A stretch of DNA of 59,310 bases from a virus (Duplodnaviria; Caudoviricetes): positions 1-59,310 of the IMG/VR virus record IMGVR_UViG_3300010366_000014, one strand, 5' to 3'. The translations under genes and the position numbers were made by a program. The notes under the pieces are model-generated. The model ran no database searches and was not told where the DNA came from. It worked only from the letters and a program-made list of their open reading frames with translations. Of this stretch, positions 1,374 through 5,126 are shown in pieces (positions within the stretch are counted from its first letter, which is position 1; each line of letters begins with the position of its first letter).

Positions 1374-1415
1374 CGGACGCGCGTCGGCGGCAACCGGCGC
1401 GCGTCGCTCTGTCGG

Positions 1416-1829
1416 TCAGACCGCGATCGCGGCGCGGCCGCGCGCGGTGAGGGTGATGATGCCCCGGTCATCCCAGGCGATGGCGATCAGGCGCTCGCGC
1501 TTGCACCAGTTCTGGACGTTGCCGTTGACCTTGATCTGGGGCAGGCCGGCGTTGCGGTAGTAGCTGTTCGTGCCGGTAGCGGCGATGGCCTCGAGGTAGG
1601 CGCGCTGCTTGTCGTTGAGCTTGGGCGGAGGCGTCTGGTCGATCGCGGCATCCTTGAGCGCGGTGATGCGGCGGTAGATGACATCGCGGCGCTCGCGGTA
1701 AAACGAGCAGTCATTGCCAGCGCGCTGGTAGGCGTCGATCTTGTCCTGGGCGGCCCGGGCCTCCTCTCGGAGGATGTCGAGATCGGTGAGGGTGGCGACG
1801 GAGCTGTGGTCGAACTGCGTGGTGTTCAC
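1416..1829 (-). CDS. Hypothetical early protein, C-terminal winged-helix-like
   Basis: AGGAG RBS, GTG start; KLNDKQRAYLEAI...ITLTARGRAA resembles a wHTH end. Confidence 0.7.
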   Translation of the reverse strand: MNTTQFDHSSVATLTDLDILREEARAAQDKIDAYQRAGNDCSFYRERRDVIYRRITALKDAAIDQTPPPKLNDKQRAYLEAIAATGTNSYYRNAGLPQIKVNGNVQNWCKRERLIAIAWDDRGIITLTARGRAAIAV

Positions 1830-1839
1830 GGTGGTCTCC

Positions 1840-2064
1840 TTAGCTGTTGTCTCGGACGGTCATGAGCGCCTGAAAGCGCGCGCGCAGGATGCCGCGATCG
1901 CTCAGGCAGGCCAGTAGCTCCTCATCGGAGTAGCGGGGATTGGCGATCGCCTCCTCCAGCTCATCGAGGACGGCCGCGATCAGATCGAGCGCGGCACCGG
2001 GATTCTCGGGGAGGGTGATGGTCTCATCACCCAGGACGATCGGGGCGAACGGGTCGGTATTCAT
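1840..2064 (-). CDS. Hypothetical early protein
   Basis: GAGGAG RBS then MNTDPFAPIVLG... Confidence 0.7.
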   Translation of the reverse strand: MNTDPFAPIVLGDETITLPENPGAALDLIAAVLDELEEAIANPRYSDEELLACLSDRGILRARFQALMTVRDNS

Positions 2065-2119
2065 GGGGGCGCTCCTCGAGCGGTAAGCATGCTTACGAAA
2101 GCATGCTTTTTCGTGGATA

Positions 2120-2422
2120 TCAGGCGATCGCGGCGGAGCCGGTCTCGGGCCAGCCAGCACGCCCGAGGGCGCGCTGGAGGGCAGCGAACTCGACCTGATG
2201 GTCGATGACGAGCCGGTGGGTTGCCGGCGTGTAGTGGTGGGTGCGGACACCGTGATACCACGTCTCATCGTGGTGGCCGTCGGTGGTGCCGACCCACATC
2301 GGCACGCCCGTCTGGCTATGATCCTTGGCCAGGACACGCGCGCGGGTGAGGGTGGAGCAGACGATCTCCTCCTGATGGTAGAGGGCGCGCGGGAACATGA
2401 CGCGGAAATACTTGTGTCGCAT
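2120..2422 (-). CDS. Hypothetical early protein downstream of hammerhead HH3
   Basis: GGGAGAG RBS then MRHKYFRVMF... Confidence 0.75.
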   Translation of the reverse strand: MRHKYFRVMFPRALYHQEEIVCSTLTRARVLAKDHSQTGVPMWVGTTDGHHDETWYHGVRTHHYTPATHRLVIDHQVEFAALQRALGRAGWPETGSAAIA

Positions 2423-2432
2423 GGTGGTGACT

Positions 2433-2505
2433 CTCCCGTTTCGCGCTTATTGGCCGTAGCCACGCGCGCATTCAGCGCCGGCACCGATTAGCCGGTAGAC
2501 GGGAG
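2433..2505 (-). ncRNA. Type III hammerhead ribozyme HH3 (variant core)
   Basis: Minus strand: CUCCCG-UC | UACCGGC-uaaucggu-GCCGGCG | CUGAAUGC | GCGC-g-UGGC-uacg-GCCA-auaa-GCGC | GAAA | CGGGAG. Predicted GUC cleavage between 2498 and 2497. Confidence 0.75.
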
Positions 2506-2529
2506 GGCGGCGGGTGCCGCCCGGGGAAA

Positions 2530-2766
2530 CTAGGCCTCGTTCACGCGGCCGCGCATGAGGGTGATGTAGTTCGTCTCGAAGCTCATGACGGTGACCTCGC
2601 GCTGCCGGAGAACGGCGGCGACGGCCTGACGCTGCCACGTCTCGCGGATCGGCTCGGTGGTCTCACCGCGAATATCCAGTTCCATGTTGATGGACTGGAT
2701 GCGATTCTTGAGGCGCTCGGAGCGCTGGAGCTGGGCGATGTGCGGGTGAACGGCGTGCTTTGCCAT
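2530..2766 (-). CDS. Hypothetical early protein
   Basis: GGGAG RBS then MAKHAVHPHIAQ... Confidence 0.75.
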   Translation of the reverse strand: MAKHAVHPHIAQLQRSERLKNRIQSINMELDIRGETTEPIRETWQRQAVAAVLRQREVTVMSFETNYITLMRGRVNEA

Positions 2767-2832
2767 GGTGGTGACTCCCTGATGGTGAAGGTGGCGGACC
2801 GGCCCGAGCGGCCGGCCCGATGTCATATCCCC

Positions 2833-3066
2833 TTAGCTGGCGCTCTCGGCGGCCGGCCGGACGCGGACGATGAGATCGTCCGAGTAGATCTTGAGCACCT
2901 CGAGCGGGGTCTCGCGATCGATCATGCGCATGGCCTGCCGATCGATGCCGGTGCGGATCGAGATCGCGGTCTCGCCCCTGGTGTTGAGATTGAAGCGGAT
3001 AACGCGGGCCTTGGCCTGCGCGCGCTTGATGTCGTTGACGGTCTTCTGGACGGATGTGGTGCTCAT
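2833..3066 (-). CDS. Hypothetical early protein downstream of hammerhead HH2
   Basis: GAGGAG RBS then MSTTSVQKTVNDIK... Confidence 0.75.
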   Translation of the reverse strand: MSTTSVQKTVNDIKRAQAKARVIRFNLNTRGETAISIRTGIDRQAMRMIDRETPLEVLKIYSDDLIVRVRPAAESAS

Positions 3067-3080
3067 GGTGTGGTGTGACT

Positions 3081-3139
3081 CCTCGTTTCGCGCTACTGCG
3101 CTCATTCAGCGCCCGGACCTGTAACCGGGACAGACGAGG
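3081..3139 (-). ncRNA. Type III hammerhead ribozyme HH2 (core with one extra A)
   Basis: Minus strand: CCUCG-UC | UGUCCCGG-uuacaggu-CCGGGCG | CUGAAUGA | GCGC-agua-GCGC | GAAA | CGAGG. Predicted GUC cleavage between 3133 and 3132. Confidence 0.85.
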
Positions 3140-3419
3140 GTTGGGGTCGCTGGCGCGCCGGTAATGTTGGAAAATCCCGGGGCGCGGTACGAACGGTAAT
3201 ACTGGATCGGGCGGGGGGAATTTTCCGGGGCGCGGGGGAGGCGGTATAGACGGAATGCGGCGGCGCGCGCGGGCGGGATCGGCGGGGCGGAGGCGATCGG
3301 CGGCTGGCCGGAGCGTGGGCGTACGTACACAGCGGGTCTGGCCTGATGCGCGCGGCCGGCCGGACACTGCCGGCAGCGGCCGCGATGCGCGTGGGGACGG
3401 ATCGGCCGGCCGGCCGGAC

Positions 3420-4154
3420 CTATTGGCCGGCCGCGATCGCGGCCGCTTTGGCCGCGTCCTTGCGTGCTTTGGTGGCCGCGCGCTTTGCAGCGGTCCGGGC
3501 CTTTGCGGCCGCGCGCGCGACCATATCGGTCGGCGGGGTCGGCGGGACAATCAGCGTGCCGGCAAGCGCGGCCGCAAGTGAGTTGAAATAGATCGCGTGT
3601 CCGCTGCCGGCGTAGGTCGCCTGCCAATCAGCGTACGCGCGCCATTGATTGGCGGCCGATCCGTCAAACAAGAGGAACGCATCGGTGATGTACTCATTCC
3701 ATGTCGCCCAATCACCGCGCAGCTTTTCCGCGTCCGCTTTGGAAAGTCCCATGCCTTTGCGCAAAGCCAGGATATCGATGCAGGGACAATCGTATCCCAT
3801 GCATGCGGCCGCAAAGGATGCCTTTGCAAAGGCCAGACCGGTGATATTGTCCTTGATGAACGCGGCCATATCCCAATCGGATCGGCGGAAATCGGCCGTC
3901 GTAAGCTTTGGCAAGAGCGCATCCACGTCCTGAAGGCCGTCATGCGTCATGCTGAAGAACCGCTTGTGATGGGTCTCCCCATCAACCGTCCATTCACCGA
4001 AGTGCTCCTCGTGAGGAGCTACCTTCTCATTGACGCTGTGCAGCGCAAAGCCGCACCCAAAGCGAAAGAGCGTCCGCAGTCCGGCCGTATCGTCTTCCTC
4101 AATCATCGCGATACGGACCGCAGACAGAACCTGAAGATTGTCCAACGCTTGCAT
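3420..4154 (-). CDS. HhH-GPD DNA glycosylase-like protein with Ala/Lys/Arg-rich C-terminal tail; first gene of the early operon
   Basis: ITGLAFAKASFAAACMGYDCPCID resembles the HhH...Asp motif of Ogg2/EndoIII-superfamily enzymes. Start moved to MQALDNL (AAGGA RBS) because the upstream ATG lies inside HH1. Confidence 0.6.
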   Translation of the reverse strand: MQALDNLQVLSAVRIAMIEEDDTAGLRTLFRFGCGFALHSVNEKVAPHEEHFGEWTVDGETHHKRFFSMTHDGLQDVDALLPKLTTADFRRSDWDMAAFIKDNITGLAFAKASFAAACMGYDCPCIDILALRKGMGLSKADAEKLRGDWATWNEYITDAFLLFDGSAANQWRAYADWQATYAGSGHAIYFNSLAAALAGTLIVPPTPPTDMVARAAAKARTAAKRAATKARKDAAKAAAIAAGQ

Positions 4155-4192
4155 GGTACACATCCTTGCCGGCAGCGGCCGGCCACATTCAT

Positions 4193-4252
4193 ACGCGCTG
4201 ATTTCGCCATCCATGGCTCATCAGACCGGATCACATCCGATTATCATCGCGT
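4193..4252 (-). ncRNA. Type III hammerhead ribozyme HH1 (canonical core)
   Basis: Minus strand: ACGCG-a-UGAU-A | AUCGGAU-gug-AUCCGGU | CUGAUGA | GCCA-ugga-UGGC | GAAA | UCA-g-CGCGU. Predicted AUA cleavage between 4242 and 4241. Confidence 0.9.
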
Positions 4253-4531
4253 CCGGTCCGCGTCCTACATCCGGCCGGCCGTATCTACCCTGCTTTGGCT
4301 ATCTAGGCCATGCGTCGATACGGCCGCGTGTATTCCGCGTCCGGTGATTGCTACTCGCGCACATCAACAGTACTCCGGCTTTTCACATAGCAGCGTGTCC
4401 GCCGTACTTTCAGGTATGGGTACAGAGGTTGCCTATGCGGCCGGGATCATCCCATGAATGGGGTCCGCGCGAGGGGCGGGCGTCGCGCGCGTGGGACTGC
4501 GCGTCGCGCCCTGGCTTCAACTGTCAAGGAC

Positions 4532-4561
4532 AGTATAGCAGGCGAAGCGCCTACCTGTCAA
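4532..4561 (-). promoter_or_regulatory. Strong sigma70-type early promoter with palindromic operator in the spacer
   Basis: Minus strand TTGACA-18 nt-TATACT with TGn extension; spacer contains TAGGCG-CTT-CGCCTG. Confidence 0.8.
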
Positions 4562-4732
4562 GCGCCTAGGGCATGCAATTTTCCGCGTCCGGACCCGGAA
4601 TACGGCCGGCCGATCGGACCCTACCGCTTAGTGGCAGCAGTTACCGTGTGAGACATAATCCCCATGGAATGATAGCCGCGCGCGCAGGCCTGTGGGGGAT
4701 GATAGCCGGACGTACCATCACCCGGGCGTATC

Positions 4733-4981
4733 TAGGCGTCTCGCCTATACCCATGGGGATCGATAGCCTCGGCCAATGGTGCAGGGCGGATGTTATCGCC
4801 ACGCTACGGATCGGCGTGGGGCCGGCGGGATCGATCGGACCCGACACCGGACCCGGACCCCGGGGCACGCGCGCCGATCGGCCGGGACGATCCATACCAC
4901 TATGCGAACATTCCCCATAGGCGCCTCGCCTAGGCCTGGAGGCACGGACCCCGGGAAGATCGTCCCTAGGCGTCTCGCCTA
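4733..4981. promoter_or_regulatory. Three copies of palindrome TAGGCG-N3-CGCCTA
   Basis: Copies at 4733-4747, 4918-4932 and 4967-4981. Confidence 0.75.
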
Positions 4982-5126
4982 TAGCTGGTAGCTGCCACCG
5001 TGCCGGAGGATCCCGCCGTGCCGATATATAGCGTTCCGCCAAAGATTTGGGCGGGGCTAGGCACCCCGGAGGCCGCCGGCGTCATCGTATCCATCCCGAG
5101 TCGGGGAGTTGAATGAGGAGCATTGC

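What the first reader, a model, noticed from the sequence alone, without database searches (positions are those of the whole stretch)
2423..3139. Shine-Dalgarno sequestered in hammerhead stem III: a possible natural self-cleavage-gated translation switch
Seen: in HH2 the 3' strand of stem III is CGAGG, overlapping the GAGGAG RBS of gene 2833-3066. In HH3 it is CGGGAG, overlapping the GGGAGAG RBS of gene 2120-2422. The anti-SD strands (CCUCG, CUCCCG) are on the 5' cleavage product and are held only by the ~6-7 bp stem III. Established: engineered bacterial hammerhead switches work by RBS sequestration and release on cleavage. Inference: cleavage would switch on translation here, acting as a timer or Mg2+/condition sensor for early genes. 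I know of no natural phage example but cannot exclude one.
Basis: partly seen in the sequence, partly recalled or inferred. Interest (0 to 1): 0.88.

Follow-up and report, generated by a model that had tools for sequence, protein, structure and literature searches.

The report
Phage hammerheads pairing their ribosome sites
Two self-cleaving-RNA motifs in a soil phage genome each hold the next gene's ribosome-binding site inside one of their own helices, so cutting may be what frees the gene for translation; the layout recurs in other phages, but its effect is untested.

Summary
On the minus strand, 3139-3081 (HH2) and 2505-2433 (HH3) fold as type III hammerhead three-way junctions with a GUC cleavage site. 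The 3' strand of stem III overlaps the only usable Shine-Dalgarno (SD) of genes 2833-3066 and 2120-2422.

Both read CUGA-A-UGN, with an extra A after A6, and HH3 has C at position 9. Rfam gives no hammerhead hit.

They are still real family members. I found 10 further distinct elements with the same inserted core in metagenome and viral contigs. A model built from them scores members at 57.7-67 bits against 27.4 or less for background. 12 of 15 helix pairs covary.

The usual layout is stop codon, GC hairpin, hammerhead, SD, AUG, which points to an intercistronic processing module.

SD-in-stem-III is not a family constant. It occurs in 5 of 12 inserted-core elements (4 contig lineages). It also occurs in 10 of 47 canonical phage hammerheads with an identifiable start.

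Predicted SD unmasking on cleavage is 2-9 kcal/mol for HH3 and 0-4 for HH2.

Cleavage-gated translation is structurally plausible and recurrent, but unproven. The timer or sensor role has no support. Verdict: a new variant of a known kind.

The parts
3081..3139 (-). HH2: type III hammerhead-like three-way junction. Stem I is CCCGG/CCGGG with loop UUACAGGU. The core is CUGA-A-UGA. Stem II is GCGC-AGUA-GCGC. GAAA follows, then stem III.
   Evidence: Model R1 scores it at 61.9 bits, E 1e-15.
3132..3133 (-). Predicted HH2 cleavage site: after C17 (3133), before U1.1 (3132), in a GUC triplet.
   Evidence: Read. The position is homologous to the invariant GUC column of alignment A2. Cleavage itself was not tested.
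3079..3084 (-). SD GAGGAG of gene 2833-3066. Positions 3084-3081 pair with the anti-SD strand 3136-3139.
   Evidence: Best anti-SD duplex is -8.4 kcal/mol, and 5 nt of the matched stretch lie in stem III.
2833..3066 (-). 77-aa ORFan gene downstream of HH2. The in-frame AUG at 3105 lies inside the ribozyme core and has no SD.
   Evidence: The only database entry is the 77-aa call from the same contig. No Pfam or PHROG family.
2433..2505 (-). HH3: the same fold. Stem I is CCGGC/GCCGG with loop UAAUCGGU. The core is CUGA-A-UGC. Stem II is long, with an A-rich 3' bulge. Stem III has 7 bp.
   Evidence: R1 scores it at 62.2 bits. Loop I is identical to that of L166, L214 and L212.
2497..2498 (-). 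Predicted HH3 cleavage site, after C2498.
   Evidence: Read; aligned GUC column. Not tested.
2431..2437 (-). SD GGGAGAG of gene 2120-2422. Positions 2437-2433 pair with 2501-2505.
   Evidence: Best anti-SD duplex is -7.4 kcal/mol, spacer 9, and 6 nt of the matched stretch lie in stem III.
2120..2422 (-). 100-aa ORFan gene downstream of HH3.
   Evidence: Its one homologue (P0002, 82% identity) starts with the same MRHKYF, which supports the start at 2422.
2505..2522 (-). GC hairpin GGGCGGC-ACCC-GCCGCCC abutting the 5' strand of HH3 stem III. It starts 7 nt after the stop codon of gene 2530-2766.
   Evidence: -17.0 kcal/mol for the 37-nt flank. An equivalent hairpin is present in 8 of the 13 elements examined.
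2530..2766 (-). 78-aa gene between the two ribozymes. Its initiation region AGGGAGUCACCACCAUG (2780-2764) resembles those after HH2 and HH3, but no hammerhead precedes it.
4199..4246 (-). HH1: candidate canonical-core type III hammerhead (CUGAUGA ... GAAA, cleavage after A4242), about 45 nt upstream of the likely start at 4152. Its stem III does not touch an SD.
   Evidence: Rfam Hammerhead_3 gives 19.2 bits (gathering score 48.5), E 0.063 on 151 nt only. R1 does not find it.
4532..4561 (-). Sigma-70-like promoter (TTGACA, 18-nt spacer, TG, TATACT; 11 of 12 matches). It could drive one leftward transcript through HH1, HH2 and HH3.
   Evidence: No terminator-like site lies between it and 2120.

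Best explanation
HH2 and HH3 are two paralogous members of a phage-borne subfamily of type III hammerhead ribozymes. The subfamily's catalytic core carries one extra adenosine after A6 (CUGA-A-UGA).

They sit between cistrons of one leftward operon. They most likely cut the polycistronic RNA after C3133 and C2498. Each cut leaves an upstream fragment and a downstream mRNA. For HH3 the upstream fragment ends in a stable hairpin. The downstream mRNA begins with a 5'-OH and the folded ribozyme body.

In this phage the ribozyme is packed so tightly against the next gene that the 3' strand of stem III is that gene's only Shine-Dalgarno sequence. Its partner, a CCUC/CUCC strand that mimics the 16S rRNA tail, stays on the other fragment.

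Uncleaved RNA therefore has the SD paired. Cleavage followed by loss of a 6-7 bp helix exposes it. Translation of the 77-aa and 100-aa proteins should then depend at least partly on self-cleavage.

Shown: the fold, family membership, covariation, and the SD overlap.
Inferred: catalysis in vivo, and the size of any translational effect.
For: Fold and family
- Model R1 scores 12 inserted-core elements at 57.7-67 bits. The best score in 892,049 bases of pattern-selected background was 27.4 bits.
- On 13 rows (12 distinct, one of them the canonical L255b), 95.5% of cells are paired and 12 of 15 pairs show compensatory change. 0 of 500 shuffles reach these values, and slid controls give 33-52% paired.
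- GUC, CUGAAUG, G10.1-C11.1 and GAAAC are invariant.
- One relative (L198) is followed 220 nt downstream by a Twister-P5 ribozyme at 58.4 bits (gathering score 37.6). The pair flanks a 53-aa gene.
- L255 carries an inserted-core and a canonical hammerhead about 370 nt apart.

Published context
- Hammerheads clustered around single genes in prophages, shown to be active in vitro and in vivo, and a natural A6a insertion with low but real activity: PMC3088659, sections 6 and 8 read in full.

SD
- No alternative SD or start codon exists.
- Neither gene can be translationally coupled. The upstream stops lie 108 and 354 nt before the AUGs.

Energetics
- Opening the SD costs 4.4-11.0 kcal/mol (HH3) or 2.0-6.0 (HH2) in uncleaved RNA. 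In the 3' product it costs 2.1-3.7 and 1.6-2.5.

Recurrence
- The same layout is in L260, L255a and L265 (AUG 5-9 nt after the stem).
- It is also in 10 of 78 canonical phage hammerheads. Start-codon distances there are bimodal, with peaks at 5-9 and 20-29 nt.

Engineered proof of principle
- PMC3664830, section 10.
Against: - No cleavage data exist. The only sequencing run that holds the stretch is a DNA run.
- Both cores deviate from consensus. HH3 also has C at position 9, a change that from recall is strongly deleterious in minimal hammerheads. It does recur in L265.
- Rfam gives no hammerhead hit.
- SD overlap is not conserved. 7 of 12 inserted-core elements and 37 of 47 canonical ones have a separate SD.
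- The CGGGA 3' strand is ancestral, so its likeness to an SD may be a by-product.
- Conditional enrichment over random positions is weak (p = 0.098). The sample was forced to have CGG at positions 15.2-15.4.
- With long flanks the HH2 fold is not the MFE. There the SD opening cost is the same before and after cleavage (2.57 against 2.51).
- The HH3 stem III duplex in trans is -13.3 kcal/mol, so the 5' fragment may leave slowly.
- HH2 and HH3 are paralogues that share their initiation region, so they count as one event.
Confidence: 0.5

Rival explanations
1. Processing and insulation only. The hammerheads cut the operon RNA into separate mRNAs. This gives a protective 3' hairpin upstream and a 5'-OH plus structured 5' end downstream. 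The SD overlap is a by-product of genome compaction. Either cleavage is fast relative to ribosome loading, or ribosomes open the short helix anyway, so translation is not meaningfully gated.
For: - The family-wide constant is stop codon, hairpin, hammerhead, start, not SD pairing. An upstream ORF stop lies 8-39 nt before stem III in 12 of 13 elements. A hairpin abuts stem III in 8 of 13.
- A separate SD is present in 7 of 12 elements and in 37 of 47.
- CGGGA is ancestral.
- The HH2 ddG approaches 0 with long flanks.
- Published views speak of processing into single-gene mRNAs (PMC3088659 section 6) and of 'different stabilities or translation efficiencies' (PMC6765202 section 13, passage).
Against: - In uncleaved RNA the SD is paired in a 6-7 bp GC-rich helix that closes a three-way junction.
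- For HH3 the predicted cost is 2-9 kcal/mol. In engineered constructs such a cost abolishes expression.
- The published A6a variant was slow, not fast.
Confidence: 0.3
2. Catalytically inactive derivatives. The inserted A, and C9 in HH3, have killed catalysis. The conserved fold then acts as a static structure: a constitutive damper of translation, a protein or RNase recognition site, or a decaying relic.
For: - Core deviations at positions that are otherwise almost invariant.
- Perreault et al. list hammerhead-like RNAs with core changes that were inactive (PMC3088659 section 8 and the legend of Fig. S7).
- No Rfam hit.
Against: - The inserted core is invariant across 12 elements in at least 7 contig lineages, while all three helices covary. 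That is selection on the junction, not decay.
- GUC, G5, G8, G12 and A13-A15.1 are all kept.
- A natural A6a variant did cleave.
- The elements co-occur with twister and with a canonical hammerhead in the same operons.
Confidence: 0.15
3. Chance resemblance to a hammerhead in GC-rich intergenic DNA.
For: - No Rfam match.
- The genome-contig scan with a 20-base pattern returned 120 or more stretches. None of the matches outside the window's own loci had a credible hammerhead fold.
Against: - 0.03 sites per shuffled window against 3 observed.
- Homologues with covariation exist.
Confidence: 0.02

Closest known systems
Clustered type III/II hammerheads flanking single genes in prophages (Perreault et al. 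2011, PMC3088659; e.g. the Agrobacterium tumefaciens ardA triple arrangement)
   Same: Several hammerheads lie on one strand, in intergenic spacers of a phage operon, flanking one gene or a short block. Here HH1 and HH2 flank the gene 3420-4152, and HH2 and HH3 flank two small genes. Their function is proposed to be processing of long transcripts.
   Different: The main text of that paper never mentions translation or ribosome binding (0 occurrences). Here the 3' strand of the open stem is the SD of the next gene. The core here is the rare inserted form.
Natural 'A6a' core insertion variant (Perreault et al. 2011, section 8 and Fig. 5)
   Same: One nucleotide is inserted after A6. The variant was reported as natural and as cleaving with low activity.
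   Different: There it is presented as a rare single variation. Here it defines a coherent subfamily of 12 elements with its own conserved loops. Which organism carried their example is in Fig. S6 and Dataset S1, which I could not open.
Engineered hammerhead RBS-sequestration switches in E. coli (e.g. Klauser and Hartig 2013, PMC3664830, and the earlier designs it cites)
   Same: The RBS is paired inside a hammerhead helix. The masking strand ends up on the other cleavage product. Cleavage liberates the RBS, and a dead core mutant gives no expression.
   Different: The engineered version is a type I Schistosoma ribozyme with an artificially extended stem I, usually with an aptamer or sRNA-responsive domain. 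The natural version is type III, uses the native stem III of 6-7 bp, and has no ligand-sensing domain.
RiboJ-type ribozyme insulators
   Same: A hammerhead-class ribozyme in the 5' leader removes upstream context and leaves a defined 5'-OH end in front of the RBS.
   Different: As I recall it, RiboJ adds a hairpin to keep the RBS exposed at all times. Here the RBS is hidden until cleavage.
Hammerhead and twister ribozymes co-located around phage genes
   Same: Relative L198 has the inserted-core hammerhead upstream and a Twister-P5 (58.4 bits) downstream of a 53-aa gene.
   Different: No twister is in the window.

Membership tests
Hammerhead ribozyme, type III | Three-way junction of stems I, II and III, open at stem III, supported by covariation | tested here: met
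   95.5% of cells paired. 12 of 15 pairs show compensatory change. 0 of 500 shuffles reach this.
Hammerhead ribozyme, type III | Consensus core C3-U4-G5-A6-N7-G8-A9 ... G12-A13-A14 | tested here: not met
   An extra A follows A6 in both elements (A3105, A2471). HH3 has C2468 at position 9. G12-A13-A14 is intact. The same insertion is a published natural active variant.
Hammerhead ribozyme, type III | NUH cleavage triplet with a U16.1-A15.1 pair, and a G10.1-C11.1 pair | tested here: met
   GUC is invariant. U-A is present in 12 of 12 and G-C in 12 of 12.
Hammerhead ribozyme, type III | Tertiary contact between the stem I and stem II loops or bulges | tested here: inconclusive
   Loop I UAAUCGGU and an A-rich stem II bulge are shared by HH3 and by L166, L214 and L212. 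No contact was modelled.
Hammerhead ribozyme, type III | Site-specific self-cleavage | not testable with these tools
   Only a DNA run holds the stretch.
Hammerhead ribozyme, type III | Score at or above the Rfam gathering threshold (RF00008 or other hammerhead families) | tested here: not met
   No hammerhead hit at E<=10. The canonical sibling L255b reaches only 26 bits, and the inserted-core L255a gets nothing in the same search.
Clustered prophage hammerheads (Perreault 2011) | Two or more hammerheads on one strand flanking a gene or short gene block in phage DNA | tested here: met
   Three sites between 2433 and 4246, all on the minus strand and all intergenic. The window is a complete IMG/VR virus record.
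Ribozyme RBS-release switch (engineered class) | SD paired within a ribozyme helix, with the masking strand on the other cleavage product | tested here: met
Ribozyme RBS-release switch (engineered class) | Expression depends on catalytic activity | not testable with these tools
   Needs reporter assays.
Aptazyme or riboswitch-ribozyme (sensor) | A ligand-binding domain coupled to the ribozyme | tested here: not met
   HH2 stems are minimal hairpins. The extended stem II of HH3 is a simple helix with a UACG loop. No riboswitch family matches at the gathering threshold in the window.

The most novel reading that the evidence does not exclude
A natural, ligand-free 'ribozyme fuse' for translation. 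The inserted-core hammerhead is a deliberately slow cutter. Its stem III is an SD/anti-SD mimic. Each cistron of the operon becomes translatable only after its own ribozyme has fired and the CCUC-bearing fragment has left. This would set a built-in delay and order of expression without any protein factor.
Probability: 0.15. Interest if true: 0.8.

Novelty: new variant of a known kind. Interest (0 to 1): 0.6.

Why it matters
The biological role of the hundreds of bacterial and phage hammerheads is still open. A 2019 review says 'additional work is needed' (PMC6765202 section 13, passage read).

This locus and its relatives give a concrete hypothesis that is cheap to test. In a subset of phage hammerheads the ribozyme's own helix is the ribosome-binding site, so catalysis and translation initiation are physically coupled. 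That is the design synthetic biologists arrived at independently.

The family also supplies natural controls, because some members have the same ribozyme with a separate SD.

It also defines a coherent inserted-core subfamily that current Rfam models do not detect. Phage annotation pipelines will therefore miss it.

Tried and rejected
Rfam
- Whole window at the gathering threshold, and three narrower E-value searches: no hammerhead for HH2 or HH3.

Flanking proteins
- Pfam and PHROGs on six flanking proteins: 0 families.
- blastn of 1400-4300 against named phages: no match.
- The P100 protein in viral contigs: 8 pattern stretches, 0 confirmed.
- P100 homologues: one, on an 808-bp contig that I could not fetch.
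- P77 homologues: none besides itself.

Collection scans
None of the matches outside the window's own loci looked like a hammerhead. One weak candidate, L098 (core CUGAAUGC, 6-bp stem III, poor stems I and II), was flagged and not followed.
- Metagenome scan: 41 stretches, 3 real (L141, L146, L158) and 38 taken as chance.
- Viral scans:
  - 0 stretches.
  - 72 stretches, 7 real loci (4 distinct sequences).
  - 33 stretches, of which 8 were already known, 3 were new and real, and the rest chance.
  - 30 stretches, 1 real (L265). Most of the rest are one conserved coding region.
  - 24 stretches. None looked real by eye. Only 4 of them were scored with R1.
  - 8 stretches. 0 of the 6 new ones pass R1.

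Searches of whole genomes
- RF00008 over 151 Alphaproteobacteria-class genomes and R1 over 151 genomes of the same phylum: 0 matches each. Only about 35 candidates per genome were scored, so these are uninformative.
- R1 on the five whole viral records of the relatives: one copy each.

Other
- Group A region against named plasmids and phages: no match.
- Sequencing runs: no RNA holder listed. The only holder is a DNA run that may be the source.
- The AUG created by the inserted A (CUGA-AUG) is not a start. It is in frame in HH2 and L141, out of frame in HH3, and closed by a stop in L146.
- A degenerate hammerhead upstream of gene 2530-2766 was considered and rejected: there is only a hairpin, with no CUGA...GAAA.
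- Supplements of PMC3088659 (Fig. S6, Dataset S1) were closed. They may already list members of this subfamily.

Print search for a natural SD-in-hammerhead example: listings only. In addition I read sections 6 and 8 and passages of PMC3088659, and passages of PMC6765202 and PMC3664830. None was found.
Full report
WHAT IS THERE

The window is a complete 59,310-bp IMG/VR virus record. The only sequencing run that holds it is a soil-metagenome DNA run, probably its source.

Genes around the finding run on the minus strand:
- a roughly 244-264-aa ORF at 3420-4152/4214;
- a 77-aa ORF at 2833-3066;
- a 78-aa ORF at 2530-2766;
- a 100-aa ORF at 2120-2422.
None has a Pfam or PHROG family.

Reading the minus strand, 3139-3081 (HH2) and 2505-2433 (HH3) each have the order of a type III hammerhead:
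- the 5' strand of stem III;
- U-C, the cleavage site;
- the stem I hairpin;
- CUGA..G.;
- the stem II hairpin;
- GAAA;
- the 3' strand of stem III.
CCUCG(U) pairs with (A)CGAGG, and CUCCCG(U) pairs with (A)CGGGAG. The cleavage sites would be C3133|U3132 and C2498|U2497.

IS IT MORE THAN CHANCE?

A relaxed type III descriptor finds three sites in the window: HH2, HH3 and a canonical-core candidate, HH1, at 4246-4199. All three are on the minus strand and intergenic. In 100 dinucleotide shuffles the mean was 0.03 per window. The descriptor was written after I had seen the sites.

Rfam gives no hammerhead match for HH2 or HH3, either at the gathering threshold or at E<=10 on slices of about 100 nt. 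HH1 gets 19.2 bits against a gathering score of 48.5.

The reason is visible in the core. Both elements read CUGA-A-UGN, one nucleotide more than CUGANGA. HH3 also has C where A9 is expected.

RELATIVES

Exact-pattern scans found the same inserted core in other contigs:
- three metagenome loci, L141, L146 and L158;
- viral contigs L166 (identical in L174, L183 and L226), L214, L212, L198, L260 (identical in L237), L255 and L265.

L265 shares the C at position 9 with HH3.

A covariance model built on 12 sequences (R1) scores all of them, HH2 and HH3 included, at 57.7-67 bits. The model was built from these sequences, so that is partly by construction. It scores a canonical-core neighbour, L255b, at 42.6 bits. 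It scores nothing above 27.4 bits in 892,049 bases of viral loci that contain the core words by chance.

On the model alignment (13 rows, 12 distinct), 95.5% of cells are paired and 12 of 15 pairs show compensatory change. 0 of 500 shuffles reach these values, and sliding the partners drops pairing to 33-52%. The alignment is fitted to the model, and the patterns fixed two pairs of stem III. Stems I and II were not fixed by any pattern.

HH3 shares its loop I (UAAUCGGU) and an A-rich bulge in a long stem II with L166, L214 and L212. These are therefore real members of a hammerhead subfamily, not look-alikes.

THE CORE DEVIATION IS KNOWN AS A RARITY

Perreault et al. 2011 (PMC3088659, section 8, read in full) report a natural insertion after A6, 'A6a', with low activity. 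They also report hammerhead-like RNAs with other core changes that were inactive.

Which organism carried A6a is in supplements that I could not open.

In Rfam searches of relatives' loci, no hammerhead family matches the inserted-core elements. The canonical sibling L255b reaches 26 bits in the same search.

THE SD OVERLAP

- For gene 2833-3066 the best anti-SD match in the 22 nt before AUG 3066 is CGAGGAGU (-8.4 kcal/mol). For gene 2120-2422 it is CGGGAGA (-7.4).
- 5 and 6 nt of these stretches lie in the stem III 3' strand.
- No other SD fits, because the stems end 14 and 10 nt before the AUGs.
- The start at 2422 is supported by the one homologue, which begins identically.
- The start at 3066 is the one called on the source contig. 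The in-frame AUG at 3105 is the A6a-U7-G8 of the core and has no SD.
- The upstream stop codons lie 354 and 108 nt before the AUGs, so coupling cannot supply ribosomes.

ENERGETICS (ViennaRNA)

- Opening the 6-nt SD costs 4.4-11.0 kcal/mol for HH3 and 2.0-6.0 for HH2 in uncleaved RNA. In the 3' product it costs 2.1-3.7 and 1.6-2.5.
- The gain is 2.1-8.8 kcal/mol for HH3 and 0.0-4.4 for HH2. It shrinks as more upstream sequence is allowed to compete.
- In a 171-nt context the HH2 fold is not the MFE.
- The stem III duplexes in trans are -10.0 (HH2) and -13.3 (HH3) kcal/mol. From recalled association rates, my inference is that the HH2 fragment leaves within seconds and the HH3 fragment may take minutes.

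IS SD-IN-STEM-III A PROPERTY OF THE FAMILY?

No, but it recurs.

Of the 12 inserted-core elements:
- 5 have it: HH2, HH3, L260, L255a and L265, with the AUG 5-14 nt after the stem. They come from 4 contig lineages. HH2 and HH3 share their initiation region and count as one event.
- 7 have a separate SD, with the AUG 16-38 nt after the stem.

The 3' strand reads CGGGA in most members, whether or not it serves as the SD.

A sample of canonical-core phage type III hammerheads was also examined. The pattern was CCGUC..CUGAUGAG..CGAAACGG. 92 of these pass the fold filters, and 78 are unique.
- 47 of the 78 have a start with an SD within 80 nt.
- 10 of those 47 overlap stem III (about 6 lineages by eye) and 37 do not.
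- Distances peak at 5-9 nt and again at 20-29 nt.

At 1,560 random same-strand positions in the same loci, 346 have a start with an SD within 80 nt, and in 40 the SD overlaps the position.

Hammerheads are therefore strongly placed just upstream of genes (47/78 against 346/1560, p = 2e-12). Given a downstream start, overlap is only about twice the random rate (10/47 against 40/346, p = 0.098). The rows are related to each other, and the pattern forces CGG at the start of the 3' strand, so these p-values are rough.

CONTEXT

- A promoter-like site with 11 of 12 matches lies at 4561-4532 on the minus strand. No terminator-like site lies between it and 2120. HH1, HH2 and HH3 can therefore lie on one transcript.
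- In 12 of the 13 elements examined, an upstream ORF stops 8-39 nt before stem III. The exception is HH2.
- In 8 of 13, a strong hairpin ends within 1 nt of stem III. For HH3 this is 2522-2505.
- The module is thus stop codon, hairpin, hammerhead, SD, AUG.
- L198 has a Twister-P5 ribozyme (58.4 bits, above threshold) 220 nt downstream, on the other side of a 53-aa gene.
- L255 has an inserted-core and a canonical hammerhead about 370 nt apart.
- This matches the published picture of ribozymes flanking single genes in prophages (PMC3088659 section 6).

MECHANISM

The best-supported reading is an intercistronic self-cleaving module.
- It separates cistrons.
- It leaves the upstream RNA with a 3' hairpin and a cyclic phosphate.
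- It leaves the downstream RNA with a 5'-OH and a folded leader.

In this phage, and in several others, the module is packed so tightly that stem III is the SD helix. Uncleaved RNA should be poorly translated, and cleavage should relieve this. That consequence is inferred from structure and from engineered analogues (PMC3664830 section 10). It has not been shown.

The main rival is that the overlap is incidental. The second rival is that the variant cores are dead. A timer is conceivable if the inserted core is slow, as the one published measurement suggests. A Mg2+ or ligand sensor has no support, because there is no extra domain and no riboswitch family hit.

KNOWN OR NEW

Known:
- clustered phage hammerheads;
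- the A6a insertion as a rare variant;
- the engineered RBS-release design.

Not found in print, in six full-text searches (listings only) and in the passages read: a natural hammerhead whose stem holds the SD. The main text of PMC3088659 has no occurrence of 'translation', 'Shine-Dalgarno' or 'ribosome binding'. A 2019 review mentions 'different stabilities or translation efficiencies' only as a suggestion.

I rate this a new variant of a known kind.

LIMITS

- There are no RNA data.
- The family samples come from exact-pattern scans, not from an unbiased model scan.
- Lineage counts are by contig and by eye, not from a tree.

Noticed in passing
window 4199-4246 (-): HH1 is a canonical-core type III hammerhead candidate (CUGAUGA, GCCA-UGGA-UGGC, GAAA; cleavage after A4242). 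It lies in the long leader of gene 3420-4152. Its stem III has 4 bp, plus 3 more after a mismatch. It does not touch an SD. The AUG at 4214 sits in its stem II loop.
   Followed up: partly
window 4727-4749, 4917-4934, 4961-4983 and around 4560-4580: Repeated palindromes of the form TAGGCG-N3-CGCCTA lie in the 850-nt non-coding stretch upstream of the leftward promoter-like site. One overlaps the promoter. They look like repressor operators.
   Followed up: no
window 2764-2781, 2420-2437, 3064-3084 (-): Three consecutive genes share an initiation cassette, GGAG-UCAC(A)CCAC(AC)C-AUG. Two of them have a hammerhead in front and one (2530-2766) does not, which suggests duplication of the initiation region.
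   Followed up: partly
window 2084-2107: A perfect 10-bp hairpin made of two copies of the self-complementary AAGCATGCTT, separated by 4 nt. It lies between gene 2120-2422 and the next gene (start 2064). On the plus strand it is followed by a short T run.
   Followed up: no
window 3140-3419 (-): A 280-nt non-coding spacer between gene 3420-4152 and HH2. It holds two copies of GCGCCCCGG(A/G)A(A/T)UUUCC-like words. HH2 is the only family member that is not close to an upstream stop codon.
   Followed up: no
L319 1212-1279 (-), that is the L198 phage record G155: A Twister-P5 ribozyme (58.4 bits, gathering score 37.6) lies 220 nt downstream of the inserted-core hammerhead. The two ribozymes bracket a 53-aa gene.
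   Followed up: partly
L318 2959-3040 (+), the L265 record: A C4 antisense RNA match at 44.1 bits, just under the gathering score of 45, a few hundred nt downstream of the hammerhead.
   Followed up: no
L166 8042-8989, with L212 and L214: In one lineage the gene after the hammerhead is a DUF932 protein (Pfam E 1e-46). There the 3' strand of stem III can also pair with a downstream GUUCCG, and the 5' strand with an upstream ACGGG. Each strand therefore has a local alternative partner after cleavage.
   Followed up: partly
12 loci listed: The inserted-core (CUGA-A-UGA) phage hammerhead subfamily is not detected by any Rfam 15 hammerhead model at permissive thresholds. Routine annotation will miss it.
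   Followed up: yes
L098 (genome contigs), oriented 2428-2494: A weak hammerhead-like hit with core CUGAAUGC and a 6-bp stem III but poor stems I and II. It was not examined further.
   Followed up: no
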